A stretch of DNA of 64,000 bases from Naegleria gruberi (lineage: Eukaryota). The position numbers were made by a program, and so were the translations under genes. Under the pieces are notes generated by a model. That model made no database searches, had not been told where the DNA came from, and worked only from the letters and a program-made list of their open reading frames with translations. Shown piece by piece: positions 5,338 to 58,828 of the stretch. Where the stretch lies: assembly GCA_000004985.1 (NCBI GenBank), contig GG738855.1; one strand, written 5' to 3'. Numbering within the stretch: position 1 is the stretch's first letter; each line of letters opens with the position of its first letter.

Positions 5338-5351
5338 AACCACCTAAAATT

Positions 5352-6713
5352 TTAATTGAGTGGATTAACAACACTTCCCAAAAACAAATCAAAGTTATGG
5401 ATTCTGATAAGTTTGATTAAGGAAAGTAAAAGAATCTTTACAGAAATATCACCATCAACATCTTGTCTCAATTCTTCCAATCTCTTCTTTGATAAAATTC
5501 TTTGACCATTATATTCAACACTCAACAATAATTTCCAAACACCCAATGGATCTTTAACTGGATCACTATCCAAAATAAGTCCTTGTAATTCAGAATCATC
5601 TGGAATGACAACAGTTCCATCAAATGAATCCAAAATATATTGTTCCAAATCATCAAAATCTTTTTCTGTTAAAATTCTATTAAAGAAATTAATTGGAAGT
5701 GTTTCCTCAAAGAATGATTTTGGTGTACCAACAACAACGAATAAGGTTGTCTTTTCCATACCTTGTGTAATTGAAAGATTTGGATCTGCGTGTTGGAATA
5801 ACAAATTATTCACTCTAGATGTGAATCTTCTGACCATTACTGGATAACGAAGAGCACGATGAATTGCAAAAGTAATATTCTCCAATGTTCCTACCATACA
5901 AACATCACCACTAACTAATTTTTGCATTGATCCTCCAGATTGATGATGAACCCAATTAGGATTTGTAATATCAAGATATGATTGTAAAGATCCATCAATT
6001 CCACTAACAAATAATTGATGAGGAATAGATCTATTTAAGGTTTTGTTAAAACACTGAATGTTTTTGGGTTTGAAAACTTACTTTTTGACGCTTTGAATTG
6101 CTGTTGGCAAATGTTGTGGATTGACAAAACTTGTTACAAGTGATTCCAATTTGTCTTTAGTATTGACTCTAATGAATGGACTTGGTGCATTTGCTGAATT
6201 TTGTGCTGGAATAATTTTGTAAAGTCTCAATAATTGTAAAACTCTGTTTTGTACTTGTTGTTCTCCAATAACCTATCATGTTTCATATAACAATGATTCA
6301 TTAATATATCAAAAAAGATTAATAAATGTTTGATGATGACAACTTACATGCAAGGTTGTGGACATCATTCCCAATAATTCTTGTTGAGCAGCAAGAGCCT
6401 TTTCCATCTTTTCATACTTTTTAGAAAGTTTATCCATAGATTGAATAAGAATTTCATTTTGTTTTTCGAGAGAAATTGTTCTATCCACAACAACAGTATT
6501 ACCATCTTCCGAAGTGATAGAAGTCTTTGATTTCTTTAATTGTTGTTCATTATTAATAGTTGGTACTGTAGTAATGTCAGCTGGATTCTTTTTTGGTCTT
6601 CCATTCATTGAACGTGTCGATGAGAAACAACACGATACACTACTTGTTGTTGCTCCGGAGAGGAGGGTTATGTTGTTATTTCTTGAGAGGAGGGAAATGA
6701 TTTGCTTTTTCAT
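5352..6713 (-). CDS. Hypothetical coiled-coil protein (~412 aa), 3 exons: join(6348..6713, 6072..6272, 5352..6020).
   Basis: ATG at 6713 after an A-run. Introns 6273..6347 (GTAAGT...ATAG) and 6021..6071 (GTAAGT...ATAG) keep the frame. N-terminal coiled coil, C-terminal ~230-aa alpha/beta domain of unassigned family. Confidence 0.5.
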
Positions 6714-42700: not shown

Positions 42701-45700
42701 AATGTACCATTACATTTACCTTGAGGATTGCACTCCTTACTCTTATGTGAACAACTAAGAGATAATGGACACCAATTACATTGAGCGTCAGCCAAACAAG
42801 TAGATGCAGAACTGTATGAGCAAGCACTTTGTGGTATACACATTGTACTTGCTTGCTCACAAGTTTGTGTTGATGGGCATACCTTACATTGAGGATTTGT
42901 ACAGTTTGAAATTGAAAAACCATTACAAACTAGTGGTGCTGAACAAGGTTGATCGAGAGGCGTACAATATGACCCAGAGGAACACCAGTGACATGACAAA
43001 TCTGAATTACATGAATTCATATCGTTTGAAACACAAGAGCTTTGTTTCTTGCAAGTTGTTGAACTATATTCACAACTTTGAGTGGAATTGCACCAAACAC
43101 AAGTAGCGTCGGTTTGACAAGAATCGGCAGTAAGACCATCACATGGTGCTTGGTTTTGTGATGGTACAACAGCGTTCTCATCCAAAGTAGCATAAATGTA
43201 ACCATTGGCATTGATATCCTTAACATAAACATTGTAAGAATAGGTAACACCTTTCAATGTGGCAGAAAGTGAATAAGTTCCAACAGCAGAAACAACTGAT
43301 TTAGTTGATACATCAGAGGTGCCGTAAACTGAGCTCAAATCTCTTGGACTTGGGGAAAGATTAGAAACAGCTCCAGTAATAGTTGAGACACTTTGGAAAA
43401 CTCTGATATTTCTAACAGATACTTCACAGAGTGGAGCATAGACTTGAATGAATTGAATCTTCTTGTTGTAGGATGTGACATCTGATCCAATCGTAGAAAT
43501 TCTAATACCATTCCATGCGCCAGTCAAAACTTTACTAGTTGAGGAGGCAGCCTTACAACCTGGACACCATGAAGTAGCATTACCATAAATGATATATTGA
43601 ATACCACTAATGTATGAATTTGGAGCTAATCCAATACCAAACATGGCACATTTTCCTTGAATCATGTATTCCAATTCAATTTCGGCAGTATTAGATAAAG
43701 TCATCTTGTTGTGAATATTAAATTGGGCAACTCTGTATAAATAAACAGTTGCTAAATTGATAATAGAGTAATCTCTCCCACTAATAAGTGAAGGGTTGAA
43801 AAGTGAAATAGTTGATGCATGCATGTGAGCAGTTAAGTGAACTGCCTTTCCTGATGGGGCTGGTCTCATTACTAGTTGTATTTGATGACTCTTATCATCA
43901 ACTATAGTAATTGTAAGAACAGGGAGTGAGGTAAATAACTCTTCATAATAAGATGAATATGAACTGAAAGCGTATGGGCCAAGTGAGTCTTTAACAATTG
44001 AAACAAATGTATGGACACCAGCTAAACTGAAATTAGTGCCTGTTGTTGGAATGGTTGTTTGAAGTTGATTGGAAAAAGCTGCATTATCCTTTGAGGTTGC
44101 AATTTTCTCATTCCACATAATATACCAACCTGTATAATTACCAGTTGTACCCAAGTTAAGAGTTGCTGAAAGACTCTTTCCGCCAACAGTACTCAATGTC
44201 AAACCAGTAATTCCACAAGTTGCTTTCCAATTCCATTCTAAAGGTCTATAATTTTGACCATTACTGTTTGAAAATACAAAGAAGGCATATTGCTGACCAC
44301 TAGGTCCATAGAAAGGTTCTTGATGGTGGAGTGGAACAAAACCTTCGTCTTGGAACCAATCAGTCATATAAATAGGTGAAGAAAAGTGTACGATACTGGA
44401 GAATGGACCATTCAAAGCATATTCAAAGTTTGTGGTTAATCCGTTGCATGTTGTTAACTTTAAATCGGATGGGAATGGTACTTCGTAGTAATTCCATCCA
44501 ACCATTGGTGTGGCAATCGTGGTTGTATACATTGGATTTTCAGGAGCAGTTAAATCTTCAAATCTAATTTGAACTGAGGCAACACACTTTCCATTAGTGC
44601 AAGTACGTTTAGTCATTGTGATATATACTCTTCTAGATCCAGAGTCATCAAAAAAGGTAAATCCCAATCTCAATGGACTGAAACGATAATTATATTCCAT
44701 TTGATAAAGTGAATTAAGCATGTTTGTAGATGCACTACTATCAATTGCTCCAGTAATCATGTGAATTTCGACGGCTCCATACTTGAGCATAGATAAACCA
44801 CCGTCAATATTTCTGAATGAGACAACATAGGAGGTTCCTTGTGCAGGATCATGAGAAATCAATAAAGCCATGTTCTTTCCATAAGAACCAACTTCGTCAA
44901 ATGGGTAAATGTCATAAGTTCCAGGACTTGTAATGTTCATAATCATTGAATCATCAATATAGTTCACTAAACGCTTATGGATAAGGTTGTATTGTAAATT
45001 ACCATTACCCATAACATCATGTGGCTCATTCTGATTTACGCTGGAACAAGTATCTCCACCGTATGCTCTTGGTGTTGAGCACATTATGGAATTGGCATGT
45101 CCAAATCCAAAATTGTGACCAATCTTTTAGATATATTAATAAAAATTAGTTCAACAATAATAAACTTACTTCATGCAAAAAGACACGGTCACTAGTATAA
45201 CCACCGTTTAACCAAAATAGACCACGACTTCCACCTGATGTACCAACACCTCCCCAATTGTAAATAGTTGGGAATCTAATTTTCCATAAACACATGTCTA
45301 GTTTCAAACATAATTTTAACACTACAATAACTTACCCAATACCAAAGAAATCATAAGTATCAGCATCAATTCCATAATCACTCAATAACAAAGCCTTAGC
45401 TTCTTCCATCAACGCACTAGGACCACCTCCATCTTGTGGATACTTTGAGGATTCTTGACTCATTCTGAGAGGTCTATTTCAAAATTTAAAAGAAAAATTC
45501 AGTAAACAACATACCCTGGAATGAGAGTATAATTGACAATATTGAGCTGATTGAATGAACCAACCTTCAATGTGTTTGTTAAACTTGCAAATCGAGAATT
45601 AAGCTCATCAAATGTTGGCTTTGACACTCCTGCAACAGCAGGCTTATTGGACCAATCTAGCCAAGCAAATAACATTCTTCTATTTCCCTTATACAACGGA

Positions 45701-46104
45701 ACCTAATGTGTGTGAGTGAAAATACATAATAATATACTTACTCCAGGAGCTTCTCTTCTAACAATTGGGATTGAATTAATTAAGACTACTCTGTCATTGA
45801 CCTTATAGCCTTCAACACTAGATTGAGGAAAGCTTCTACGTGGAAATGGTTCACTCAAGGGAATTGCCTTATACATGTATCCACTGCCTTCGAGAATAAA
45901 TTCTCCATTACTCATGTACATTAATCTAGAGTTGGTAAAACGTTCCAGAGGAACATTGTTACTTGTTTTCAAATAGGATCTTGCTGCTTCAGGATTAGTG
46001 AGAGCAAGAGAAACCAAGTCTTCTACTTCCATTGTGCTGGACTCTATGAAAGAGGCAGCCAAAACGAAGAGTAGAAGCAATATAGCAAGAGCTTGTTGTT
46101 TCAT
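36719..46104 (-). CDS. Giant (~3050 aa) secreted zinc-metallopeptidase-like protein, M66/StcE/dictomallein-like metzincin (HEIGHNFGFGH), fused to PSI-like and EGF-like cysteine-repeat arrays, beta-rich Ser/Thr domains and a C-terminal hydrophobic GPI-like tail. 6 exons: join(45742..46104, 45515..45702, 45343..45473, 45170..45297, 42667..45123, 36719..42619).
   Basis: Signal peptide MKQQALAILLLLFVLAASF. The HExxHxxGxxH motif is split by intron 45124..45169. Small introns of 39-47 nt with GTAAGT/GTATGT donors keep one frame (total CDS 9168 nt). About 9 CxxxxxCxxC...CxWC PSI-like modules and about 14 CxCxxGYxGxxC EGF modules. The protein ends in GVSHVITLLLSLFAIVM. Confidence 0.7.
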
Positions 46105-46413
46105 TTTTCAATCTGTCTTTACACACTTCAGTATTAAGCAAGAGGCAATAAACATACAATTGTTTACAATGTATTTTGCCAAATTTCGCCATCAAAGATT
46201 AATCTGGATATCCGTGTGGAATGAAATCAATATTTGGTGTTCCGATTAATTATCTCTTATGGACCTCAATCGCTCAATGTATTTTTCAGAGTGGGCACTT
46301 GTTCAAATATGGTCCAATCTCTCTAGATGAAATTATTATAAATTATTCTCCAAGTCAAAAAGTCAATGAAGATTATCAATTATAGATGTTGTATTTTAAA
46401 TATTTGATATTTA

Positions 46414-47139
46414 CTATTTCTTTACTTTTGGTCTTTCATAATCAAATGGTTTTTCATACATGACCATATTAATTAACAAGAATAATGGTACAAAAAAGTA
46501 AATGGCATTAGTTCCAATCAAAACTGGGTGATAATTTTGATACTCGAAAATATAACTACTAATTATTGGAATTAAGGTAGTCATTGTATGGCTGTTTTCA
46601 TGATTTGAATAATTACTGATTGAAAATTACACATACCTGCAATAAATAATGAATGGAATTCTGCACCAATTGCTTCCAGCAATCAAGGCATAACAAGCAA
46701 CAAAAAAGAATGGTAATTGAAATAAAATCTCACAATGCACCAAACTCAAAAACCAAACAGGAAAAGTTTCCATCAATTTATCTACAAGTTCAGTAAAATT
46801 ATTATTTGTAAAAACGTACCTTGATAGGCATTAACCCAATTTTCAATAAAGAAATCTGTCACAGCCTTTGGTGGAAAATTTGGAAAGTGTGGAGAAAGAA
46901 CAGCCTATTAATTTTTCCATCATCATTCCGAAGCAAAATTTTGAATGATATTTAATCATCATTGTTGATTATATAAATATTAATTGTGAATTTAAATTAT
47001 TATCATCATATAATAGTAAAATAATACCTACTCTTGCATCAATGAAAATACTGGCTGGAATATGTGTCAAGAAATAGATAAAGAATAACAAATGCCATGG
47101 ACGAGCAAATATGGATGGAACGTAAGTATTGTTGGTCAT
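46414..47139 (-). CDS. TMEM97: TMEM97 / sigma-2 receptor (EXPERA domain) protein, 171 aa, 4 exons: join(47032..47139, 46820..46904, 46637..46781, 46414..46591).
   Basis: The spliced product closely matches the TMEM97 family ([48 protein letters not shown]). Introns 46905..47031, 46782..46819 and 46592..46636 have GT...AG ends and are frame-consistent. Confidence 0.8.
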
Positions 47140-47518
47140 TTTTTATTTAAAATGTTAAAAATATTAAATTTGAGCGGGTAATCATTAATAAGTCTTATTA
47201 AAATCACACCAAATATAAAAACTGTAGATAAGCATGTACAAAAATGAAAAATCACCAAGTTAACAAACTAATATTTCTTGACATGTTGGTGAGCCAAATT
47301 TCAAGCCCAACGATTACCTTTACAATAATTTACAGTTCAATGAAGAAAGATTCTTCCAAAACAAAGTTGAAATGGGATTTTTTGGTCCAAAAATAACGCT
47401 ACATTTCACAATTCCACACCCACTGTCACGTTTAAAAGCACCAACACCATGAATAAAATAGTATTAATACAATTCAAAAAAAAACAATTCTAAATAATAT
47501 TAATCCACTCGAGTAAAG

Positions 47519-48299
47519 ATGTCAGCTACATTTAATTTCAACTGTACCTATGTTAGACAAAGTGATGGTTTGGTTATTCAATCACAAGCCATGGACAATA
47601 ATGCAACACAATGGCAATGGACATCACCTACCGATCAAGTTTGTGAAGGAAGAATTTTACCAACTAATGAATGGGCTTTCTACTTTAACAATGCTGCACT
47701 CTCACCAACTAATTTGAGAGCTGTTTTGATGAATGTTACGTAAGTGTTTTTAATGTAGTTAGTTCCAATGAATATTTAACTGTCTTTGATGAAATAATTC
47801 GCCTGTCATCATAATTTCACACATTTATTTTCATCCAATCAATAATTCTCTTCTAGTCAAGCTTCACCAACAATCTTACAAGTCAATGCAGTTTTGGGTA
47901 GAACTGCAGAAACCTATTGCCAAACAACAACCGGATCTTCATCATCTTCAAGTACCACTCCTACCACTTCATCAACTTTGGCCGTTCCTCCATCCTACAA
48001 GGATTCAGCCAATAAGACTTGGTTTGTTTCAGGACTCTCCACAACCTTATTCAATGCCACTTGTAGTGATGGTAGAAAGGCAGTTGTTTATTATGCGTAA
48101 GTAATTCTAAATGTTATTTATTCTAATCAATTATTTTAGTTTGTATCCAAATTCAGTACAAACCTCAACTGCTACCTACTCTGTATATGTCAAATTCTAC
48201 AATAGTTCAAATGTTTTGATTGATTTCCAAAGAGGTCAAGGAAATTCCAACATGACTTCAATTGCATTTGATAATAGCTATTCATGGGTTAAACCTTAA
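47519..48299 (+). CDS. Hypothetical ~210-aa N-glycosylation-sequon-rich protein, 3 exons: join(47519..47739, 47857..48096, 48140..48299).
   Basis: GTAAGT donors at 47740 and 48097 and AG acceptors at 47855..47856 and 48138..48139 join three ORF-track fragments in frame. No family recognised and no obvious signal peptide. Confidence 0.4.
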
Positions 48300-48440
48300 A
48301 TTATTGATGTATGATTCAAAATTGTAAATAAAAATTGTATATTAGTTCAACCTATTCAAGTACTTCCTCGTTCAAAACCACCAATCATGGTTTTGGCTTA
48401 TCAAAAATCATTTGCTTAGTTAATCAATTAAGGATCACAT

Positions 48441-48514
48441 GCAGCGATAGATCAGTTGGTTAGATCGTAAGCCTAACACGCTTAAGGTCGCGGGTTCAAG
48501 CCCCGCTCGCTGTA
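48441..48514 (+). tRNA. tRNA-Val (anticodon AAC).
   Basis: Cloverleaf: acceptor GCAGCGA/TCGCTGT (G1-U72 wobble), D-arm GATC/AGTTGGTTA/GATC, anticodon stem TAAGC/GCTTA with loop CTAACAC (AAC at 48475..48477), T-arm GCGGG/TTCAAGC/CCCGC, discriminator A. Confidence 0.75.
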
Positions 48515-49423
48515 ACTTTTAAGGAATTAGCAGCTATTTTAAAGCCACACCACTAATGGATGCATCTCTTTGTTGTAATGGTAGATAATTGATTGTGCGA
48601 GTTGGTAGTTTTTGTTCCTTAATTCTGTTAATGATTCTTTCTACAAGGAATAGTTCTCCAACATGATTCAGTTCCAAATTCAAAATTATTAAAATAATGC
48701 TATACAAACCAACCAAAAATTGTAAAATTCAGTTTTTTTTATTGTAGTTGTTTACAGTGCCTTCAACACTTTATGTTTCACATTGATTTTAGAAATGAAT
48801 GTTGTATAAAATTGTAAACTTAAAGTTACAATTTCTCACCAAATAATTTTGATTTATTAAAAAAGAATTCATCTTTTTTTATCAAAAAGGCCAATTGTCT
48901 ATATTTGCCTTCAACTCGAATAAGGGTTCAACCAATTCTCTCGTTAGCAAGTAACCTTTCGCCCCTTTCAAAAGTTCTTCAAAGCTTTTCGTTGTTACTC
49001 TCCACAGTGAGCAAAAACACGTGCATTGCATTCGATCTTCACACCTGAGGAGCAAACATAATTGTATTGGAATCGTCAAAAGCTACACAACCACTTCACA
49101 CCAAAAAATTCAAGCATACACCACCTCTGTCAAGCTTGTATATCTGGAAGTAATAGAAACTCTGAAGAAGGACTCTCCGTATGCTCTTTATTGGTTCGCC
49201 TTTACATTGTAGCATACCATTCATACTTTGATTTGTTGTGATCCAATTCCGTACTGCTTCTGTTATTGTTGTAGAAGCACTCTCCCCTGCATTGATCAAG
49301 CAAGTACTTTGTCATTCCGTTTCATCATCTAAATAACAAGAAGAGAACAAATTCATATTGTTATTATAATTATTGAATAATCATACCTTCATCATCATCA
49401 TCTGAAAATACTACAATATCATC

Positions 49424-52132
49424 ATGATGGAAGACCAATCACCAACTAATCCTCTTCCTTCTACCATCATGTCTACGGATACAAATACATCAAAAGACAA
49501 GGTTGTATTCATCTATGTTCTCGATAAGGAGAATGAGGAACAACAAGAGGTGCAATATAGACACCTCTCATGTTATGCTCACTATCACGTTCTTAGTACT
49601 TTATTAATCATGGGTTGTAAACAAGGAGATGCTGCTGAAATTAGTGATTTAGTTTTCAAATGGGTCTCAGAAGCACAATACAACCTAAAACTACAACAAC
49701 AAAAACAACAACAATTAGAGAGAGCAAGACATTCATCATCCGAGGAGGAAAATCTCCTCGAAACTGTTGATAATTATTCTGTAAATGAACTAAACGTTGA
49801 AGGAACATACAGCCAACAACAATCTAAACTTCTCAAACCCTTGTTAAATTATAGAGAAAACAACAACATACTACCAACTAGTATTCAACAAGTAATAGTT
49901 GAAGATCACTTGGATTATTCAAGTTGTTCATCAAATGGTGAAAGTGGTAGTGAATCGGAAAGAGAGGATGATAAAGAAGTTATTACGAATGAGGACTTTT
50001 CTATTGATTCTCCGCCAACACTCTCCAACTATCAAGGAGGAATTACATCATCACCTCACAATTGTAATAAGAATAGTGAAGAAGAATCAATAAATCACCT
50101 CCATCAAGACTCTCACAAGAAGGACAGAAAGAAAAAACACAGAAAGTACAAATCCTCTAAATCTCCCTATGATAGTGGTAATGATATTGATGAATCCGAT
50201 CATGAACACCATTCAGACGATAATGTTTCGCTAACCCCTAATCATGAAAAACAATCCACCACAGTGCCATTCTCTAAATCCATATCTGTACCAATCTCTA
50301 ATCACAACAAGAAAGCACTCTTAACTAATCATTCACTAGAAATTCCAATCACTATAGAACAACAAGCATCTGGAAGTTTTGATTCACAAACTTTAGGTAC
50401 ATCACCAAATAATGTAAATAATCCTTTAAGTAAGAAGAGAATTTTGAGATATGACAAGCATTTGAAGAGCAAGTCTTATCTTGTTAGAGAAATTACCTAC
50501 ATGCTCAAACAGAATAGGTCTCTCAAAATTCCACAAACCATCAGTAAGAGACATGAGAGAAATTATGTAATTTTCCTTACCAGATTCCAATTCCAAGAGA
50601 TTATAAGAATTGCTTTGAACGTTTTTGGTTACAGTAGAGCAAATAGAATTAGAGACTTTTCTATTGCTTGCTCAATGCAAGAAAGAAGAAGACCACTAAT
50701 TATTTTATTTGGAGGAACTTCTGGTACTGGTAAAAGTACATTGGCAAGTCTTATTGCAAGTCGTTTAGGTATTACAAAAGTCCTCTCTACTGATAATATT
50801 AGGCACATGCTTAGAGCATTTATTTCTAAAGAAGAGGAACCAGTTTTATTTGCCTCTACCTATCATGCAGGAGAAGCTCTTGTCAATACACAAGAAGGAA
50901 AGGAACTGAAAGATAAAATGTCACCAGATGAATTAACTGTTGAAGGATTTAGAAGACAATGCAAATTGGTCATTGAACAATTAGAAAAAATCATTGAACA
51001 AGCAATTGAACGTAATGAGGGACTTGTAGTGGAAGGTGTTCACTTATTGACTGATTTTATTGTGGAACTTATGAAAAAGCATCCAACTAGTATCCTACCA
51101 TATATTATTTATATTAGTAATCAACAAAAACATAAGGAAAGATTTGCTATCAGAGCAAAATACATGACTCTCGAACCTAGGAACAACAAATATGTCAAAT
51201 ATTTCCAAAACATTAGACAAATTCAAAAGTATTTATATGATAGAGCTGAGGTTTATAATGTACCAAAAATTGATAACACAAATATCGATCGTTCTATTGC
51301 AGCAATTCATGGCAGTGTATTCAAGTCTATGAAGATGGTCTTTGAAAATAAGAAATTATTTAATTATGAAACTGGCAAATGTTCCTCAGTACATCCTAAA
51401 TCTCTTTTCGATAAGAAACATCAACATTGGTCTTCCAAGAGAATGCTTCAAGCTCTTCAAAAGAAACGAGTCTCTCTAGAAATTAAGGGATTAGCTGAAG
51501 CCTCAACAGTCCCAATAGTAGAAACTGAATTAATAATCCAAACTGATTCTTCCTCAACCAATACTCCAATAATCTCCAATTCATCCATTACCATTCCTCC
51601 TCTTGTACACACCAAATCATCATCAATAGAATCATCCAATACTGAAGAAATTACAGAAACTGTACTTGGAAAGGAAACTAGCAGTAGTAGTGAGGGCGAG
51701 GCAGACGATAAGACAACTCTCTCCAATAGATCGTCAAGAAGGAAAAAGACTCTTACTCTCACTAAGAAAAATGTTGTCTTTGCACCAAATGAACCCTCAC
51801 ACGATAATCAAAAACCTGAATTGGAGGAAAGTTTGGAAATAACTAGAGAAATGCAAGAAAATGTAGAGACTCTGGAAGACCCTGAATCAATATCGCCCAC
51901 AATTGTGAAACCAATTTCTGCTCTTAAAAAGAAGAAGAAGAAATTGGTTGAAGAATTAATCAATCGTCCAGACAGTCCAGAGGAACCACCTCAAACTCCA
52001 CAAAATGGGGAAACTGACACAAACGATACTCCTAAATACAATTACTATACAACAAGTGAAGGTGTTTGCAGTTTGTCAGAAAGAGATCAAGATTTTGAAT
52101 ATGGCCAATGGATTGAAATGGATACATCCTAA
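49424..52132 (+). CDS. 2-phosphoglycerate-kinase-like P-loop NTPase domain protein (plant LPA1-like), 902 aa, with a long low-complexity N-terminus.
   Basis: Walker A and flanking block LIILFGGTSGTGKSTLASLIASRLGITKVLSTDNIRHMLRAF matches the 2-PGK/LPA1 P-loop family. The rest is disordered and Ser/Asn/Glu-rich. Confidence 0.7.
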   Translation: MMEDQSPTNPLPSTIMSTDTNTSKDKVVFIYVLDKENEEQQEVQYRHLSCYAHYHVLSTLLIMGCKQGDAAEISDLVFKWVSEAQYNLKLQQQKQQQLERARHSSSEEENLLETVDNYSVNELNVEGTYSQQQSKLLKPLLNYRENNNILPTSIQQVIVEDHLDYSSCSSNGESGSESEREDDKEVITNEDFSIDSPPTLSNYQGGITSSPHNCNKNSEEESINHLHQDSHKKDRKKKHRKYKSSKSPYDSGNDIDESDHEHHSDDNVSLTPNHEKQSTTVPFSKSISVPISNHNKKALLTNHSLEIPITIEQQASGSFDSQTLGTSPNNVNNPLSKKRILRYDKHLKSKSYLVREITYMLKQNRSLKIPQTISKRHERNYVIFLTRFQFQEIIRIALNVFGYSRANRIRDFSIACSMQERRRPLIILFGGTSGTGKSTLASLIASRLGITKVLSTDNIRHMLRAFISKEEEPVLFASTYHAGEALVNTQEGKELKDKMSPDELTVEGFRRQCKLVIEQLEKIIEQAIERNEGLVVEGVHLLTDFIVELMKKHPTSILPYIIYISNQQKHKERFAIRAKYMTLEPRNNKYVKYFQNIRQIQKYLYDRAEVYNVPKIDNTNIDRSIAAIHGSVFKSMKMVFENKKLFNYETGKCSSVHPKSLFDKKHQHWSSKRMLQALQKKRVSLEIKGLAEASTVPIVETELIIQTDSSSTNTPIISNSSITIPPLVHTKSSSIESSNTEEITETVLGKETSSSSEGEADDKTTLSNRSSRRKKTLTLTKKNVVFAPNEPSHDNQKPELEESLEITREMQENVETLEDPESISPTIVKPISALKKKKKKLVEELINRPDSPEEPPQTPQNGETDTNDTPKYNYYTTSEGVCSLSERDQDFEYGQWIEMDTS

Positions 52133-52337
52133 ATAAAACTGTAATGACAAATACTTTAGTCGATTAGTGTTGTTTGTTTCAAGACCACATTATGAGAATC
52201 CAATTAAACAATCAACACCATTGTAACCTGTTCGGAAAATTGGTCAAGCTCTTGGACATCCGAGAGCAAGCTTCAATTATGCATCAAACAAATCAACAAG
52301 TCGTTTTATATGCATGAAAATAATCAACATAAAAAAA

Positions 52338-54107
52338 ATGTCCTCCACCATTACCACTCTCAATCAGAGTGTACAATCAAGAATAGATTCTTTAAATGAT
52401 CAGTTGAAGGATATTAAACCTCTCACTCTAATTTTTTATACAACAGCCACCATTGCTTCAACATATTACGGAAAACAATTATGGGAAGCCTCCAAGGAAC
52501 ATCCAAATGGATTGAGTGGAGTTCTTCTCGGAACAATTTTAAAAACTGTTAGAAAATTACCAATGGTTGATTCCAAAATTCAAGAAACACTTGCAAAAAT
52601 TTCAAAGGAGATCAAATTGTCTTTTAAAAAAGGAATTGAACAAGAAGAATACAATGAAAAATTACCATTAGAAGGAATTCCATATCCACAATTATTGAGC
52701 TTACTTAAAAAAATGAAACAACTCGATGGTAAAAAGGTATCTCAAAAGAAATTATCTGGTGTTGTATATATTGATGCTACAGATGATTCAAATGATGAAG
52801 AGGACTCTTTAAGTGTAAATGATCAAGTTGTGTCACAAAGTAGTACTGATCCTCTTGCATTTAGAAAATATCATGAAGACCTCCTTGCCAAAACCTATCG
52901 TTATTTCATGCATACCAATCCATTGCATTCAGATTGTTTCCTCTACACCAGAAAAATGGAGGCAGAAGTTATTAGAATGACTGGAGCCATTATGAATGGA
53001 TCCTACAATAAGGAGACAGGAGAGGGTATTGTTGGTACCACCACAAGTGGAGGTACAGAGTCTATTATTATGGCATTGAAGGCCTATCGTGATCAAGCTA
53101 GACATGAAAAGCCATGGATCAAGCAACCAGAAGTTGTTGCTCCAAGAACTGTCCACTGTGCTTTCGAAAAGGGATGTCACTATTTGGGCATCAAGTTGAG
53201 ACATGTCGAAGTGGATTTGAATACTTTCAAAGTTAGAATGGATTTGGTTAAAAAGGCTATCAATTCCAATACTATTTTATTAGTGGGATCTGCTCCATGC
53301 TACGGCCAAGGTATTATAGATCCAATTGAAGAATTGAGTGAATTGGCTCTCAAGAATGGACTAGGTTTGCATGTTGATTGTTGTCTTGGAGGTTTTGTTG
53401 TTCCATTTGCCAAGAAGCTTGGTTTTGATTTGGGTCTTAAAGATTTTGATTTTACCTTGCCAGGTGTAACTAGTATGAGTGTTGACACTCACAAATATGG
53501 ACTAGCTCCAAAAGGTAGCAGTGTTCTATTGTTCAGATCCAGAGAATTGAGAAAGTACATGTACTTTGTTACTACAAATTGGATGGGTGGTGTTTATGCT
53601 ACTCCTATCTTCTCTGGTAGTCGAAGTGGTGCACTTGTTGCTACTGCTTGGGCCAGTTTGATGCATGTGGGAGAAAAGGGCTATTTGGAGGCTACTAGAA
53701 GAATTGTAACAACTGTTCAAAAGATTAAGAAGGGAGTTCAACAAGAAATACCAGAAATTAGGGTATGTGGTGATCCAAAAGCTATGGTGATTGCCTTTGA
53801 AACCAATACTCAAGTGAGTAAAATTGATATTTACCAGGTTATGGACTTCCTCTCCCATAGAGGTTGGAGTTTGAATCCACTTCAATTCCCTGCCTCTATT
53901 CACTTGTGTGTAACCCTGAATACTGCCACAGATGAGAAGGCCAATGAATTCATCCAAGACATGAAGGATGCTGTCAAGGAGGTCAGTACTCATCCAGAGA
54001 ATGTAAAGGGTTCAGCACCAATGTATGGATTGGCAATTTCCATCCCAGATCGTTCCATTATTGATAGTATGATCACCAATGTAGTTGATGCCATGTTGGA
54101 TCTCTAA
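52338..54107 (+). CDS. SGPL1: Sphingosine-1-phosphate lyase (PLP-dependent, group II decarboxylase fold).
   Basis: GTTTSGGTESI, the PLP-lysine motif SVDTHKYG and overall collinearity with S1P lyases. N-terminal TM segment. Start at the A-rich ATG at 52338 (the ORF opens at 52314). Confidence 0.85.
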   Translation: MSSTITTLNQSVQSRIDSLNDQLKDIKPLTLIFYTTATIASTYYGKQLWEASKEHPNGLSGVLLGTILKTVRKLPMVDSKIQETLAKISKEIKLSFKKGIEQEEYNEKLPLEGIPYPQLLSLLKKMKQLDGKKVSQKKLSGVVYIDATDDSNDEEDSLSVNDQVVSQSSTDPLAFRKYHEDLLAKTYRYFMHTNPLHSDCFLYTRKMEAEVIRMTGAIMNGSYNKETGEGIVGTTTSGGTESIIMALKAYRDQARHEKPWIKQPEVVAPRTVHCAFEKGCHYLGIKLRHVEVDLNTFKVRMDLVKKAINSNTILLVGSAPCYGQGIIDPIEELSELALKNGLGLHVDCCLGGFVVPFAKKLGFDLGLKDFDFTLPGVTSMSVDTHKYGLAPKGSSVLLFRSRELRKYMYFVTTNWMGGVYATPIFSGSRSGALVATAWASLMHVGEKGYLEATRRIVTTVQKIKKGVQQEIPEIRVCGDPKAMVIAFETNTQVSKIDIYQVMDFLSHRGWSLNPLQFPASIHLCVTLNTATDEKANEFIQDMKDAVKEVSTHPENVKGSAPMYGLAISIPDRSIIDSMITNVVDAMLDL

Positions 54108-54237
54108 TTTTGAGACAAGCAATGTGTGAAATTTTCCTGTTGGCCCATTCAAATTTTCCTTACATCAGAGTGTATATCCGGCTCGACACTGGAAAAAAAA
54201 TAAAACTGTTTTTGTTTTTATTGGAAAACTTTGTTAA

Positions 54238-55834
54238 TTATTTGGATGGGTGTTCGCAAAGGGTATCATTATGTAAAGCACACATCCAGTAACCACATTG
54301 GGTACATTTTGTGTGCACTCTTGAGTTGTTACAGTAGTGGCAATTGTGGTAATGATGATCATTGACTTTTACATGTGTATGGGGCTGAGTCAATTTTCTC
54401 CCTACATTATCAACTTGAGCACCACCTTTTCTTGCTAATTCAATAGCAAGCATCGAGAGGTACGAAACTAATGTTGTGTTGGGGTCGACAGCTTCCTTGT
54501 AAAAGATCCAACAATTTGTGACTGCTACTCGAAAAATTCCGAACCAAGCTGCATTTGTCCACCTATGCATCCGATGTGATCCATTGTAAAGATGGGCATA
54601 CCGATCAGACACATCCACATTAACATGGTTCTGCTCATACACTGCCTTCACACTAGGGTGTTCATTTCCTCTAGTTTTGGTTTGTTCAATAGATACTTCA
54701 TTTGTTACAAAGTTTACAACTTTTTTATCAGAAAATCTAATAACAACAAAATCACCATTAGTGACCGAAACCCAATCACCTTTTTCCAATGTATACTCAT
54801 TGAGTATCTGGTTACATGGTTTTCCAAGTCGATTACTCATGCAGTTCATTGTGAAACGAAATCCCATTAAATTCAAAACTGCAGCCGTCTTGTAGTGCCC
54901 GAAGTAAGAATCAACACAAATACTATAATTTCTGGATGGTAGGGCTTGTACAAAATCCCAGACAAGTATATGGACAGGTGGTTGATGACCACAGTATGGC
55001 CAAAGACGATACACGAACCATTTACTATCTGACATTAAATAAAGCTTCACACCAGTGTTAGTGGGTTTTCCTTTAATGTGTTGTTTAAAGCGATACCTAC
55101 CATCAAATTCTATCAATGTTTCATCGACAGCAATTCTTCGGAAGGATCCAAATCACCTTGGAAATTATATTAAATATTCTTGTAAAATGATGAGGGTTTG
55201 CTCTGAAGTGTCTATTGATGTAAAGAAAGTCATCTCGGTTGTTCCAAATATTCTTGATGAATTGGTTACTGGTCAGAAGTGATGTAGAGAAGTATAAATC
55301 CAACTCAGGAAGAGGAGCGAGCATTATTGTGATAATAGTTGCAAAATAGAGGTAAATGTCAGACAAGGTGATTATCTTGCTGAGTGGTAAAGAAGTCACA
55401 TCCTCGTGTTCATCAACACTTTCTTCAGGTAGAGAAGGTATGATAACTTGATCGTCTTCATCAAGTTGTTCATTGTCTTCCGAATTATTTTGAACATGTT
55501 TTCCATACCACTCTTTAATGTGATCACCTTGGTCATCAAAATCCGTTGTTGATGGCTTGTGTGGATGGTTACATAGATCAACTATTCCATCCATTAACTC
55601 ATCAGTCAAGTACTGCTCCAAACATTTAAGAGGAGTCATTGAATTCAAGTGATTGCCATGACCAACAGGGCCTTCCGATACCTGTTTGAATGTCATCTCC
55701 TTTTCAAAAAATTCATAATCACTCCATCCCAAACTGTGTAAAAATTCACTGTGTTGGTTGATGTCCTCTAGAGTAATATTATGAGGTTTGTTCATTACTA
55801 GTTGGTGTGATGATGAAGAAAATATACCATCCAA
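54238..55834 (-). pseudogene. piggyBac transposase-like coding sequence (~530 aa) with a frame disruption near 55117..55125 (possibly decayed or domesticated).
   Basis: Conserved piggyBac blocks: PLKCLEQYLTDELMDGIVDLCN, IAVDETLIEFDGRYRFKQHIKGKPTNTGVKLYLMSDS, and the C-terminal Cys-rich zinc finger HNCHYCNNSRVHTKCTQCGYWMCALH. The N-terminal and C-terminal halves lie in different frames, separated by a TGA. The ORF-track M at 55116 is a TTG. Confidence 0.6.
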
Positions 55835-55846
55835 AGTTGATGCTGA

Positions 55847-55879
55847 CTTTGTAAAAAACGGTATTTTTTTTTACAAAAG
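55847..55879. repeat. Near-perfect palindrome CTTTGTAAAAAA-N8-TTTTTTACAAAAG immediately 5' of the transposase-like ATG.
   Basis: 12-nt arms, reverse-complementary apart from one extra A, read directly from the sequence. Confidence 0.5.
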
Positions 55880-56177
55880 TGAACCAACTATACCACCATC
55901 CATATAAGGACACGATCATCAAAATGAAAAAAACAAACTTCAACATCTTTATGAAAATGCAAACACATTGCCCCATTCCGATGATTGCACCCAATAATCA
56001 AGTTTAAACAGCACGTGGCGAGCCTGATATATCAATTATTATTATTTATTAAGTGGACTATCAATTATAAACCGACCATTTTACAGTAATCATTATCAAT
56101 GGCTGTATATGTTGTTGGAACAGGAGCACTGGTAATCTTGCTCCCTTTCACACCACAGTGAACCTCATCATAAAAAA

Positions 56178-57410
56178 ATGTCTGTAAGCCGTGTCGTTCT
56201 TGCCCTCTTCCTTATTGCCATCTTGATGGTGTGTGTTGAGACTAAGGTTATAGTTCGTGATATTTTGAAGGAGAAGAAAGCTCAACTCGAACAAGTTAAG
56301 GATGCCATTCAATATAACAAGATTCTTTTGGAAAGTGTTGAATCATTCCGTACTGGAAGTGATAACATTGATTCCTATGTTCTTCAAAATACGCTCAATG
56401 CTAAGAGTTTGGCAGAGGCTGAACAAGCTTTATCTTTGGAAATTAGAGTTTTGCAAGCCCGATGTGATAAGTTTGCTGGTGATATGTGTGAAGCTACAAC
56501 AACAACAAACACTGTCAAGCCACCAGTTATTACAACACTTTCTGTTGATCCAAAACCAGTTAAGCCATCTACAAATAGTACCGTTAAACTACCAGTTAAA
56601 CCAGTTGTTGGTTTACCAAAGCCAGCTGTTAATTCAGTTGTTACTTGCTTCGGTGTAAAATCTACTGATCCAAAGGTCTGCAATGGTAACGGTGTTTGTT
56701 CAAAGAAGGATACATGCACTTGTAATAGATCTCATAGTGGAAAGGACTGTAAGGAATCATTCCTTCCAGCAGTTAAGCCAGTTTCCCCAACCAATACTAC
56801 CAAACCAAGTACTCCAGCCAAACCACCAGTTAAACCACTTTCTGTTGATCCAAAACCAGTTAAGCCATCTACAAATAGTACCATTAAACCACCAGTTAAG
56901 CCAGTTGTTAACAATACAACCAAACCAATTGAGCCAACCAAGCCAACTAAGCCAGTTACTCCAGTTAAGCCAGTTGCCCCAACCAATACTACCAAACCAG
57001 CTACTGGAATGGTCACTCATTCTGTAGCACCAACCTTGCCAATCAGTTCAAGCAACTCTACTGCTACTCCAAAGACAGTTAGGCCAACCAAACCAGCTAC
57101 TAAATCAGCCAAGAAAACCAAGTCAGTTAAGCAAAGAAAGGTTTCAACAAAATCAGCACTTAAGCCAAGAAAACCAGCCGCCAAGGCAACAAAGGCAGCT
57201 AAACCAGTTAAACTAGCTACCAAGCCAGCCACCAGATCAGGACTAAACAAAAAAGCAAAACCTACAACCAAATCAGTTAAGCCAAGAAAGGTTTCAACAA
57301 AATCAACTGTTAAGGCGGCTAAACCAGCTAAACCAACCAAACCTGCTACTACAGCCACACCAGCCCAACCAACCACACCAACTCAACCAAGCACACCAAA
57401 TAAGAAATAA
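56178..57410 (+). CDS. Secreted 410-aa protein: signal peptide, coiled-coil segment, one EGF-like Cys module, then a Pro/Thr/Lys-rich mucin- or histone-H1-like repetitive tail.
   Basis: N-terminal MSVSRVVLALFLIAILMVCVETK signal peptide. Module CFGVKSTDPKVCNGNGVCSKKDTCTCNRSHSGKDC. Long PTK repeats (KPVKP, TKPAT...). Confidence 0.65.
   Translation: MSVSRVVLALFLIAILMVCVETKVIVRDILKEKKAQLEQVKDAIQYNKILLESVESFRTGSDNIDSYVLQNTLNAKSLAEAEQALSLEIRVLQARCDKFAGDMCEATTTTNTVKPPVITTLSVDPKPVKPSTNSTVKLPVKPVVGLPKPAVNSVVTCFGVKSTDPKVCNGNGVCSKKDTCTCNRSHSGKDCKESFLPAVKPVSPTNTTKPSTPAKPPVKPLSVDPKPVKPSTNSTIKPPVKPVVNNTTKPIEPTKPTKPVTPVKPVAPTNTTKPATGMVTHSVAPTLPISSSNSTATPKTVRPTKPATKSAKKTKSVKQRKVSTKSALKPRKPAAKATKAAKPVKLATKPATRSGLNKKAKPTTKSVKPRKVSTKSTVKAAKPAKPTKPATTATPAQPTTPTQPSTPNKK
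56520..56909 (+). repeat. Internal direct repeat, two ~90-nt copies about 300 nt apart (56520..56609 and 56823..56909), encoding LSVDPKPVKPSTNST(V/I)K(L/P)PVKPVV.
   Basis: A 42-nt block (tctgttgatccaaaaccagttaagccatctacaaatagtacc) is identical in both copies; the flanks are ~85-90% identical. Confidence 0.7.
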
Positions 57411-57414
57411 ATAT

Positions 57415-58828
57415 TTATTTCTTCTTTTTTTGTTCATGACTTGCTTTCAATCTAGCAAAAACAAACTCAACAATTAATAAAATATTACCCACTAAAAAGA
57501 TTAAGGTAATGAAATAGAAAAAGTTTGCATTACCAGTTCCCTTAAAATTCCAAGTGTTGAAACATATTGGACCAAGGAATAATGTAGCCAATAAAGTACT
57601 GACAATAAAGAAACCATATCTCATATTACCACTGACATCCACAAATAATAATAAAAGAGTCATGTAAAAGTAAAAGTCTCCCAGGCATGGATAATTCTTA
57701 AATACTGAAATAATTGCTATTTGTACTACACACCAAAAAAGTCCATCGTTTTTGAATCTAATTGTCAAAGGAATAATGTATGCAAATACATGAAGATGGA
57801 AAATGAGAAGGAAGAAAGTTCTAAAATCATTAAAAACCTCAATAAAAAAATACCACATAGTTCCCCAATTTGGTGTTAGATCTTCCAGTGACATTGGATA
57901 ATAGTAACATTGATACATGAAACTTTGCATTATTTGAATAGACTTGTCATTGAATATTTGAGTCATGATTGAATTATTAACATTCGTCTCATCATGATTT
58001 AATATGAAAATAGAAGCCAGTACGAGAATTGCCATCCACGCTATGAAAAGCACAGTTGCTTTGAATGCAATTGCTGTTGTTGAAGGCGCTTGATTATTTC
58101 TTAATTGAATGCTTCTCAAAATTAAAACAACTCCAATCAACAGGCACACAGGATAAAGTGTCAAATAAGTCCCAAAGGCCAAGAATAGAGTACTCATGGT
58201 GAGATTTGACTTGCTTGCAAAATATAACGCTCCCACAATTGAAATATTGTTAAAAATAACTGTAGACATACTGATACAACTTCCAATCATTACAGGATTG
58301 AATAAGTACGCTAAAAACAAAAGGGTAGGGAGATTATTAGAATCTTGCTTGTTTTCAATTTTTTGATTTTCAATGTATGCAAAGATTAATCGTGATTCGA
58401 ATGCATTTTTAGCAAGTCCAAAAATTAAATATGCAACCACTAAATCCAATACAATATAAATACATCTGTCAATCCACAAATCAACTTGTTCCATTTCAAA
58501 CATTTCACTCAACTCATTTGATATTCCGAAAGGTATTAACAGTAGAGGAGGTTGTAAATATGATGAACTTGAATATGGGGATTGTCCAATACGCGTCAAG
58601 AATAATCCTTCCTTTACTATTTAATTATTAATAATTAAAAATAATTAAATATTCACACCTACATCTTTTAAAACTTGTTGTTGGTGTCGAAAAATGTATA
58701 TCATTCTCTAATGATTTATCAAATCCGTAATAAAATAGCAAAACTCTTATTAGGATTGCCAATACTGACGCGATCACAAGTGGTGCAAGTTGGTGCGATG
58801 AAGATTTTGGTGAGTTGAGAGGCTGCAT
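57415..58828 (-). CDS. PIGU: GPI transamidase component PIG-U, 2 exons: join(58663..58828, 57415..58616).
   Basis: EDLTPNWGTMWYFFIEVFNDFRTFFLLIFHLHVFAYIIPLTIRFK and GNANFFYFITLIFLVGNILLI match PIG-U blocks. Intron 58617..58662 (GTAGGT...ATAG) is frame-consistent. Multi-TM. Confidence 0.8.

What the first reader, a model, noticed from the sequence alone, without database searches (positions are those of the whole stretch)
54173..56031. piggyBac-like transposon remnant with 17-bp inverted repeats and a frame-disrupted transposase
A ~530-aa piggyBac-type transposase is encoded in two frames broken near 55117..55125. The conserved DDE-region blocks and the C-terminal Cys-rich zinc finger are both recognisable. 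The coding region is bracketed 1.86 kb apart by 15/17-identical inverted repeats (TATATCCGGCTCGACAC and the reverse complement of GTGGCGAGCCTGATATA). No clean TTAA target duplication is visible at the repeat edges. This suggests an old, possibly immobilised or domesticated copy. piggyBac-family elements are not among the classic repeats described for social-amoeba-like genomes.
Basis: partly seen in the sequence, partly recalled or inferred. Interest (0 to 1): 0.6.

Follow-up and report, generated by a model that had tools for sequence, protein, structure and literature searches.

The report
Naegleria piggyBac transposon inserting at ATAT
This is a real, frameshifted copy of a piggyBac-type jumping gene in a Naegleria amoeba genome, present in one strain and absent from another, and it and its relatives duplicate ATAT on insertion instead of the TTAA that is the hallmark of piggyBac.

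Summary
The sequence facts are confirmed, but the repeat has to be divided differently. A near-identical metagenome contig (L001) lacks the insertion. It fixes the element at 54178-56026 (1849 bp), with 12-bp terminal inverted repeats (10/12 identical) and a clean 4-bp target duplication, ATAT.

The minus strand encodes a piggyBac transposase (PF13843, E 2e-24; PDB 6x67, E 3e-22). Its catalytic aspartates and Cys-rich finger are intact. One frameshift lies within 55124-55152; it is not an intron.

The host is a Naegleria, not a social amoeba: the flanking S1P lyase is 73% identical to that of N. lovaniensis. The presence/absence difference argues against both an old fixed remnant and a domesticated gene.

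Two N. lovaniensis copies (one intact, 525 aa) and three more distant relatives are also flanked by ATAT. One relative has TTAT and none has TTAA. The ATAT tetranucleotide makes up only 0.7% of the window.

So this is an ordinary defective transposon copy, but it belongs to a piggyBac clade that appears to target ATAT. I found no description of such a clade in the searchable literature.

The parts
54174..54177 (.). Target-site duplication ATAT, copy next to the 3' end of the element
   Evidence: The empty-site contig L001 has one ATAT (L001 3042-3045) that aligns to both 54174-54177 and 56027-56030.
54178..54189 (+). Terminal inverted repeat at the 3' end relative to the transposase: CCGGCTCGACAC
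   Evidence: Homology to L001 stops exactly at 54177/54178. This arm is 10/12 identical to the reverse complement of 56015-56026.
54190..54237 (-). Short 3' untranslated end of the element (48 nt between the stop codon and the inverted repeat)
   Evidence: Read directly from the sequence.
54238..55152 (-). Transposase frame B: the catalytic core from the first aspartate onwards, the insertion domain and the Cys-rich finger, with the stop at 54238-54240. Aspartate codons are 55125-55123, 54912-54910 and 54615-54613 (plus 54606-54604). The Cys-rich finger spans about 54342-54250.
   Evidence: Pfam PF13843 at E 5e-22, profile positions 128-349. Alignment to PDB 6x67 residues 258-491. The aspartates align with PB D268, D346, D447 and D450.
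55124..55152 (-). Zone in which the frameshift must lie, because both frames are open here. The best DNA alignment to the N. lovaniensis copy places a 2-bp deletion in a Pro codon at 55144/55143.
   Evidence: Homologues read ...IWKPFPNVTVDETL... without interruption. The net length difference from N. lovaniensis is -2 nt.
55124..55795 (-). Transposase frame A: an acidic N-terminal region and the first part of the DDE_Tnp_1_7 domain, from the ATG at 55795-55793 to the premature stop at 55123-55121
   Evidence: tblastn of the repaired protein maps residues 1-221 to 55795-55133. It is colinear with N. lovaniensis P0001/P0002 from residue 1. In the joined protein the Pfam match extends to profile position 33.
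55796..56014 (-). 5' untranslated end of the element (219 nt), containing an A/T palindrome at 55848-55880
   Evidence: (pairs I3 and I12).
56015..56026 (-). Terminal inverted repeat at the 5' end relative to the transposase: CAGGCTCGCCAC on the minus strand
   Evidence: Homology to L001 resumes exactly at 56027. Repeat pairing.
56027..56030 (.). Target-site duplication ATAT, copy next to the 5' end of the element

Best explanation
The region 54178-56026 is one 1849-bp copy of a piggyBac-superfamily cut-and-paste DNA transposon in a Naegleria genome. It sits in the 218-bp spacer between a sphingosine-1-phosphate lyase gene and a secreted EGF/Thr-Pro-rich protein gene.

Shown here:
- The insertion boundaries.
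- The 4-bp ATAT target duplication.
- The 12-bp imperfect terminal inverted repeats beginning 5'-CC/CA.
- The piggyBac-type transposase with all catalytic aspartates and the C-terminal Cys-rich finger.
- A single frameshift.
- Absence of the element from an otherwise 99.4-99.7% identical allele or strain.

Inferred from the piggyBac mechanism (Chen et al. 2020, PMC7351741):
- A transposase dimer binds the ends.
- It excises the element through hairpins that carry the 4 flanking nucleotides.
- It integrates with a 4-nt stagger into an unpaired tetranucleotide. Excision then restores a single copy of the target.

In this lineage the preferred tetranucleotide is ATAT, not TTAA. The central TA is kept and the outer bases are swapped.

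This copy cannot make full-length transposase. Frame A stops before the first catalytic aspartate. Any recent movement must therefore have been catalysed in trans by an intact copy, or the frameshift arose after insertion.
For: - Empty site.
- Transposase identity: Pfam PF13843 at E 2e-24. PDB piggyBac 6x67 at E 3e-22 and piggyBat 9c0f at E 1e-17. DDD(D) columns conserved.
- Frameshift, not intron.
- Host is Naegleria.
- ATAT is a lineage property, judged from related elements:
  - N. lovaniensis L003: ATAT|CCTCTACGCGACGG...CCGTCGCGTAGAGG|ATAT.
  - N. lovaniensis L004: the same ends at a different site.
  - L007: ATAT|CCCTTTTAAACC...|ATAT.
  - L008: ATAT|CCTTTACAGCACCAAC (16/16)...|ATAT.
  - L009: right end ...AAAGG|ATAT.
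  - L011: ATAT|CCCT...AGGG|ATAT.
  - L002: TTAT|CCTTTAGGGGACA (13/13)...|TTAT.
- ATAT is only 0.71% of window tetranucleotides, about the same as TTAA at 0.74%. Three out of three Naegleria insertions at ATAT is about 4e-7 by chance.
- The family is or was recently active. L003 carries an uninterrupted 525-aa ORF. L003 and L004 differ by 5 substitutions plus two deletions over 1.87 kb.
- Canonical piggyBac-like elements use ATAT as a minor site: CsuPLE1, 2 of 21 insertions (PMC4273485).
Against: - Only one copy is visible in the 64-kb window, and the rest of this genome could not be searched. Copy number and the existence of an intact helper copy in this species are therefore unknown.
- The terminal repeats have 2 mismatches in 12, including position 2, and the ORF is frameshifted. 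That fits poorly with a very young insertion. The empty allele could instead reflect precise excision or an old polymorphism.
- Outside the window, ATAT is palindromic, so without empty sites it cannot formally be told apart from a 4-bp extension of the inverted repeats.
- The L011 inverted repeat is weak (9/13).
- Four related loci (L005, L006, L010, L012) gave no readable ends.
- No transposition assay exists for any member.
Confidence: 0.88

Rival explanations
1. It is a domesticated, single-copy PGBD-like host gene. On this view the inverted repeat is coincidental and the frame break is an intron or is otherwise bypassed.
For: Only one copy is present in the window. The catalytic aspartates and the Cys-rich domain are preserved. 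No closer homologue than 50% identity exists in a 5.8-billion protein collection.
Against: - The whole 1849-bp unit is absent from a 99.4-99.7% identical allele.
- The break points coincide to the base with the inverted-repeat ends and a 4-bp duplication.
- The ORF is disrupted with no intron-sized gap and no missing residues.
- The N. lovaniensis relatives sit at unrelated loci with the same end structure.
Confidence: 0.02
2. It is an old, immobile remnant. The insertion is ancient, has decayed, and the presence/absence difference is an old polymorphism kept in a diploid or polyploid asexual lineage, or the result of one precise excision long ago.
For: A frameshift is present, and the 24 terminal-repeat bases carry 2 mismatches. 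Perfect repeats occur in the N. lovaniensis copies and in the L008 and L002 relatives. The two haplotypes differ by about 0.4%.
Against: - Apart from one indel, the 518-codon reading frame has no stop codons or further frameshifts.
- The target duplication is perfect.
- The flanks are nearly identical between the filled and empty alleles.
- Imperfect repeats are also seen in relatives (L007 13/14, L011 9/13), so they may be native to the family rather than a sign of decay.
Confidence: 0.15
3. The frameshift is an assembly or sequencing error, and the copy is in fact an intact autonomous element.
For: It is the only lesion in the ORF. The family has an intact 525-aa member in N. lovaniensis. 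The insertion is polymorphic, which suggests recent activity.
Against: The indel is not in a homopolymer run (context ggatcc|ttccgaag). The most parsimonious change is a 2-bp deletion, which is not a typical consensus error. No independent read data were available to test this.
Confidence: 0.15
4. The ATAT flanks are simply what an AT-rich genome offers to a transposase with relaxed 4-bp specificity (NTAN or any AT-rich site). They do not reflect a true ATAT preference.
For: One relative has TTAT (L002). Hosts are AT-rich: 34% GC in the window and 25% in L002.
Against: - Six elements with both ends readable, plus one single end, carry exactly ATAT.
- Two of these have higher-GC backgrounds: L011 at 50% GC and L007 at 45%.
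- ATAT is only 0.6-0.7% of tetranucleotides in the Naegleria loci.
- AATT, TTAA, TATA and AAAT were never seen.
Confidence: 0.12

Closest known systems
piggyBac (IFP2) of Trichoplusia ni, and piggyBat of Myotis lucifugus (PDB 6x67/6x68, 9c0f)
   Same: - The same transposase fold family: PF13843, with profile matches at E 3e-22 and 1e-17.
- DDD(D) catalytic residues.
- A C-terminal cross-brace Cys-rich finger.
- An acidic N-terminal region.
- Short 12-16 bp terminal repeats starting 5'-CC.
- Asymmetric untranslated ends.
- A 4-bp target duplication with a central TA.
- An empty allele that looks like a seamless site.
   Different: - The target duplication is ATAT, not TTAA.
- The whole element is 1.85 kb against 2.47 kb.
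- The residue equivalent to PB Y283 (omega loop, contacts the TTAA hairpin) is His throughout the clade.
- PB N440 is Glu in the Naegleria proteins.
- Core identity to PB is only about 20-25%.
PiggyBac repeats of Naegleria lovaniensis (RepeatMasker class in Liechti et al. 2018, PMC6125883; proteins C9374_014391 and C9374_010529)
   Same: These are the closest relatives, at 50% amino-acid identity over 97% of the protein. They share the same element size (1865 and 1830 bp), the same architecture and the same ATAT flanks.
   Different: - A different terminal repeat sequence: CCTCTACGCGACGG, 14/14 perfect.
- One N. lovaniensis copy is intact.
- The published record gives only a masked-base count. 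It gives no ends or target site, and the NCBI gene models run through the transposon end.
CsuPLE1 of Chilo suppressalis and other TTAA elements with occasional non-TTAA insertions
   Same: They show that piggyBac-type enzymes can integrate at ATAT: 2 of 21 CsuPLE1 sites (PMC4273485).
   Different: There ATAT is a minority site of a TTAA-specific element. Here ATAT is the only site seen in Naegleria and the majority site in the clade. Surveys treat non-TTAA duplications as rare or mutational (PMC5381638; PMC10813416).
Domesticated ciliate piggyBac transposases (PiggyMac, Tpb2)
   Same: They are piggyBac-derived enzymes whose 4-nt staggered cuts are centred on TA rather than requiring TTAA. This statement rests on established knowledge, as summarised in PMC5381638.
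   Different: Those are immobile host genes without transposon ends, acting on thousands of eliminated sequences. The window element is a mobile unit with its own ends.

Membership tests
piggyBac superfamily (mobile piggyBac-like element) | Transposase with the DDE_Tnp_1_7 / piggyBac catalytic domain | tested here: met
   PF13843 at E 2.3e-24, 86.8 bits against a cut-off of 22.4. PDB 6x67 piggyBac at E 3e-22.
piggyBac superfamily (mobile piggyBac-like element) | Catalytic aspartate triad equivalent to PB D268, D346 and D447 | tested here: met
   The aligned columns read AVDET, CVDSY and NVDVS(D) in the window protein and are invariant in all relatives.
piggyBac superfamily (mobile piggyBac-like element) | C-terminal cysteine-rich (PHD-like) DNA-binding domain | tested here: met
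   C-x2-C-x8-C-x2-C-x4-C-x2-H-x4-C-x-H at the C-terminus. It aligns weakly to PB 549-591 (domain 3).
piggyBac superfamily (mobile piggyBac-like element) | Short (12-19 bp) terminal inverted repeats beginning with C, usually CC(C) | tested here: met
   CCGGCTCGACAC and CAGGCTCGCCAC, 10/12 identical, ending exactly at the insertion boundaries. Relatives begin CCTC, CCTTT or CCCT.
piggyBac superfamily (mobile piggyBac-like element) | 4-bp target-site duplication | tested here: met
   The two flank alignments overlap by 4 bases on the empty-site contig.
piggyBac superfamily (mobile piggyBac-like element) | The target-site duplication is TTAA | tested here: not met
   The duplication is ATAT here and in six related elements, and TTAT in one. 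TTAA was seen in none.
piggyBac superfamily (mobile piggyBac-like element) | Precise (footprint-free) excision | tested here: inconclusive
   The empty allele carries exactly one ATAT and no footprint. That is what either precise excision or a never-occupied site would look like.
piggyBac superfamily (mobile piggyBac-like element) | Autonomy: one uninterrupted transposase ORF | tested here: not met
   A frameshift lies within 55124-55152. The N. lovaniensis relative L003 does have an intact 525-aa ORF.
Domesticated piggyBac-derived gene (PGBD type) | No transposon ends or duplication, an intact selected ORF, and a fixed orthologous position | tested here: not met
   Ends and a duplication are present, the ORF is frameshifted, and the locus is empty in a near-identical allele.

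The most novel reading that the evidence does not exclude
The window element belongs to a deep, mostly protist clade of the piggyBac superfamily. The clade is marked by a K/R-Q-H motif where PB has Y283. Its natural integration site is ATAT rather than TTAA, and at least one member looks currently competent: the intact 525-aa N. lovaniensis copy with perfect 14-bp ends. If so, TTAA specificity is not a universal property of the superfamily. A natural enzyme with a different tetranucleotide target, and presumably still seamless excision, would then be available for mechanistic comparison and as a genome-engineering tool.
Probability: 0.5. Interest if true: 0.65.

Novelty: new variant of a known kind. 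Interest (0 to 1): 0.5.

Why it matters
TTAA targeting and seamless excision are the two properties that define piggyBac and make it a standard genome-engineering vector. Surveys of hundreds to thousands of elements treat any other duplication as noise, and some pipelines filter on TTAA (PMC5381638, PMC10813416, PMC13461360).

A clade that consistently uses ATAT, proven here by an empty site, offers a natural experiment on how the enzyme reads the outer two bases of an unpaired tetranucleotide. It also points to a candidate active transposase in N. lovaniensis that could be tested directly.

For Naegleria biology, the insertion gives a presence/absence marker between near-identical strains. 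It is also evidence that DNA transposons are, or recently were, moving in these compact genomes.

As a locus, the copy itself is ordinary: a defective transposon in an intergenic spacer.

Tried and rejected
- **Intron at the frame break.** Rejected. Both frames overlap, the homologues align with no missing block, and the net difference from N. lovaniensis DNA is 2 nt.
- **Programmed frameshift.** No slippery sequence is present. Not pursued further.
- **Other copies, solo ends or miniature derivatives in the window.** None were found by pattern search with 3 mismatches, tblastn or blastn.
- **Identifying the genome by exact protein look-up.** Three flanking ORFs and eight long ORFs are not on record. 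The host was instead placed by homology.
- **PB N440 to Glu as the cause of the ATAT preference.** Rejected. The ATAT-flanked elements L007, L008 and L011 keep Tyr-Asn.
- **His-for-Tyr at PB Y283.** This is clade-wide but is only a correlation.
- **Word-indexed protein searches.** These gave only three relatives. The exhaustive HMMER search was needed to reach the others.
- **Viral contigs.** No relatives were found.
- **JGI metagenome scan.** It gave two degenerate fragments without readable ends.
- **L010 and L012.** No ends were detected.
- **Literature look-ups.** Searches for 'PiggyBac-A/-X', for the assembly accession GCA_041643055 and for the supplement of PMC5381638 returned nothing usable.
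- **Structure prediction.** Not run, because the sequence-level matches to solved piggyBac structures were already decisive.
Full report
**1. What is in the sequence**

In the whole 64-kb window the degenerate pattern occurs only at these two places, against 0.09 matches expected by chance.

Between the arms, on the minus strand, lie two overlapping open frames. Frame A runs from the ATG at 55795 to a stop at 55123-55121. Frame B is open from 55152 to the stop at 54238-54240. Frame B alone matches Pfam PF13843 (DDE_Tnp_1_7, the piggyBac transposase domain) at E 5e-22. The joined protein matches at E 2e-24 over profile positions 33-349.

A profile of the protein and its relatives finds the solved piggyBac (6x67/6x68, E 3e-22) and piggyBat (9c0f, E 1e-17) transposases. 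The aspartates that align with PB D268, D346, D447 and D450 are all present. The C-terminus carries a complete C-x2-C-x8-C-x2-C-x4-C-x2-H-x4-C-x-H finger.

**2. The host is Naegleria, not a social amoeba**

The upstream neighbour (52314-54107) is a sphingosine-1-phosphate lyase. It is 73% identical to the Naegleria lovaniensis protein, 59% to that of Willaertia magna and 46% to that of Acrasis kona. The only close relatives of the transposase are two N. lovaniensis proteins at 50% identity and one metagenome protein at 37%.

The window is gene-dense, with long intron-poor ORFs and 34% GC. None of eleven window ORFs is on record by exact match. This particular genome or strain is therefore not annotated in the collection. 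I can place it in the genus but not name the species.

**3. The empty site**

The lyase search returned a 100%-identical protein from an ENA metagenome contig (P0004, locus L001, 4565 bp). On that contig the lyase gene and the downstream 410-aa gene are 218 bp apart; in the window they are 2070 bp apart.

BLAST gives L001 1-3045 = window 51135-54177 (99.4% identity) and L001 3042-4565 = window 56027-57550 (99.7% identity). The two alignments overlap by exactly four bases, ATAT. Three things follow:

- The inserted unit is 54178-56026, 1849 bp.
- It is flanked by a perfect 4-bp target-site duplication, ATAT, at 54174-54177 and 56027-56030.
- The true terminal inverted repeats are 12 bp, CCGGCTCGACAC and CAGGCTCGCCAC, 10/12 identical.

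The statement that no clean TTAA is visible is right, but a clean duplication does exist.

Taken alone, the inverted repeat would not be convincing. One search lists 131 pairs in 2.4 kb, several of them longer. What proves it is that its inner ends coincide to the base with the insertion boundaries.

**4. The frame break is a frameshift**

Homologues read ...IIWKPFPNVTVDETLIQF... straight through the break. Frames A and B overlap between 55152 and 55124, so there is no room for an intron and no residues are missing.

At the DNA level the window is 2 nt shorter than the N. lovaniensis copy between the conserved TGG and TTC codons. The simplest reading is a 2-bp deletion in a proline codon at 55144/55143. 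An alternative placement near 55132 is also possible. The context is not a homopolymer.

Frame A ends before the first catalytic aspartate. The longest internal start in frame B lies after it. This copy therefore cannot make an active enzyme. I could not check reads, so I keep an assembly error as a 15% rival.

**5. Related elements and the target site**

*N. lovaniensis.* Both proteins were traced to their loci. The two copies are 1865 bp (L003 4763-6627) and 1830 bp (L004 4763-6592). They have perfect 14-bp ends, CCTCTACGCGACGG. Both are flanked by ATAT on each side, in unrelated surroundings. They differ by five substitutions and two deletions of 9 and 26 bp.

L003 has an uninterrupted 525-aa ORF with a complete Cys-rich finger. 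The NCBI model for it (C9374_014391) inserts a spurious intron and runs past the transposon end into the flank. The L004 model reads through the end because of the 26-bp deletion.

*More distant relatives.* An exhaustive HMMER search of 1.84 billion representatives found 5777 relatives, 56 of them at E<=1e-30. I could fetch the DNA for five of the nearest. Together with L002, the contig that carries the metagenome relative P0003 (fetched), their ends read as follows:

| Locus | Source | Ends |
|---|---|---|
| L007 | NCBI assembly GCA_041643055.1 | ATAT\|CCCTTTTAAACC...\|ATAT |
| L008 | Logan SRR34065990 | ATAT\|CCTTTACAGCACCAAC (16/16 perfect)...\|ATAT |
| L009 | Same family as L008, another run | Right end ...AAAGG\|ATAT, with a different flank |
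| L011 | JGI metagenome, 50% GC | ATAT\|CCCT...AGGG\|ATAT, with a weak 9/13 repeat |
| L002 | JGI, 25% GC | 13/13 repeats flanked by TTAT on both sides |

Four loci (L005, L006, L010, L012) are degenerate or truncated and gave no ends.

*Tally.* Six elements with both ends readable, plus one single end, carry ATAT. One carries TTAT and none carries TTAA.

ATAT makes up 0.71% of window tetranucleotides and TTAA 0.74%. Base composition therefore does not explain the result. Three out of three independent Naegleria insertions at ATAT is about 4e-7 by chance.

*Caveat.* ATAT is its own reverse complement. Outside the window it could formally be read as part of the inverted repeat. The empty site in the window and the non-palindromic TTAT of L002 argue that it is target DNA.

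**6. How it most likely works**

By homology with piggyBac (Chen et al. 2020, PMC7351741), the following steps are inferred:

- The transposase synapses the two ends.
- It nicks the 3' ends and forms hairpins that include the four flanking nucleotides.
- It opens the hairpins and integrates with a 4-nt stagger into a target whose tetranucleotide is unpaired.
- Excision leaves complementary 4-nt overhangs that re-ligate without a footprint.

In PB the reported base contacts are to the central T and A: the T-3 methyl pocket formed by V414/L416/Y439, and N440 contacting A-2. The outer T and A are read through a hydrogen bond between the two of them.

All eight sites seen here keep the central TA. 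ATAT swaps the outer pair, which could still pair with each other. TTAT could not. The hydrophobic pocket residues are conserved in the clade: V/I at PB 414, F/L at 416 and Y at 439.

I tested whether the Asn-to-Glu change at PB 440 in the Naegleria proteins tracks the ATAT preference. It does not, because the ATAT-flanked L007, L008 and L011 proteins keep Tyr-Asn.

A clade-wide difference that does track it so far is His in place of PB Y283, in the omega loop that contacts the hairpin. His is found in every member examined and in 22 of the 26 top-30 hits that could be scored. This is a correlation from a handful of end calls, not a demonstrated cause.

**7. Age and activity**

The filled and empty alleles differ by about 0.4% in their flanks. 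The element therefore moved in, or was precisely excised, within that span. This rules out a fixed ancient remnant and a domesticated gene.

On the other side, the frameshift and the two mismatches in 24 repeat bases are more damage than a very young copy should have. There are three possible explanations:

- The copy was mobilised in trans while already defective.
- The imperfect repeats are native to the family. L007 and L011 are also imperfect.
- The polymorphism is old.

I cannot separate these without the rest of the genome.

The insertion lies 70 bp after the lyase stop codon and 148 bp before the start of the next gene. It may therefore disturb 3'-end formation or the promoter of its neighbours. 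That is inference only.

**8. Comparison with what is known**

On domain, catalytic residues, Cys-rich finger, end structure and 4-bp duplication, the element passes the tests for the piggyBac superfamily. It fails the one on which the literature is most emphatic, the TTAA target.

- Bouallegue et al. 2017 call TTAA a general feature of the superfamily. They ascribe the rare ATAT, TTAT and similar cases in single copies to mutation (PMC5381638).
- A 2023 survey of 212 animal families reports the same pattern (PMC10813416).
- CsuPLE1 shows ATAT as a minority site, at 2 of 21 insertions (PMC4273485).
- The N. lovaniensis genome paper lists PiggyBac only as a RepeatMasker class: 29 pieces, 23.6 kb (PMC6125883).

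I found no description of a lineage whose normal site is ATAT. However, Repbase and Dfam could not be searched and my literature access is partial.

**9. Verdict**

The locus itself is an ordinary, defective DNA transposon copy.

What raises it above routine is the target site. An empty site and seven related ends show that this branch of piggyBac duplicates ATAT, and an apparently intact member is available for testing.

I rate it a new variant of a known kind, with interest 0.5.

Noticed in passing
L003 5001-6836 and L004 5001-6617 (N. lovaniensis PYSW02000008.1 and PYSW02000043.1): The NCBI gene models C9374_014391 and C9374_010529 are wrong at their 3' ends. The first has a spurious intron and both run through the transposon's terminal repeat into flanking DNA. 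The uninterrupted ORF in L003 is 525 aa (5001-6578) with a complete Cys-rich finger.
   Followed up: yes
L001 (ENA ERZ929261, run ERR1078381, PRJEB11402, contig k127_432244): A metagenome assembly contains Naegleria DNA 99.4-99.7% identical to the window. This includes the empty allele of the transposon site, so this Naegleria strain or species is present in that sample.
   Followed up: partly
window 48440-48516 (+): A single tRNA-Val (AAC) gene is the only Rfam or ARAGORN hit in the window. It lies in a 4.3-kb stretch (45085-49423) that has no ORF of 250 aa or more.
   Followed up: no
window 56178-57410 (+): A 410-aa ORF has a hydrophobic N-terminus, one weak EGF-like cysteine motif and a long Thr/Pro/Lys/Val-rich region. 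The region contains internal ~94-bp repeats (56516-56609 and 56819-56909, about 91% identical). It looks like a secreted or surface mucin-like protein, and the transposon sits 148 bp upstream of its start codon.
   Followed up: no
window 55848-55880: An A/T-rich palindrome (TTGTAAAAAA..TTTTTTTACAA) lies in the 5' untranslated end of the element, about 55 nt upstream of the transposase ATG. It could be a promoter or a subterminal binding feature, or only low-complexity sequence.
   Followed up: no
L007 and L008 contig ends: Both short-read contigs stop within 0-2 bases after the right-hand ATAT. That is what an assembler does at the edge of a multi-copy repeat. It hints that these families are multi-copy and that every copy shares the ATAT flank.
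   Followed up: no
proteins P0001-P0003 and P0125-P0164: A large subgroup of piggyBac-domain proteins carries the motif G-R-x3-[KR]-Q-H-[IV]-[KR]-G-K-P-x-[AD]-T-G-[LI]-K, with His where piggyBac has Tyr283. It dominates the nearest 30 relatives and thins out further away.
   Followed up: partly
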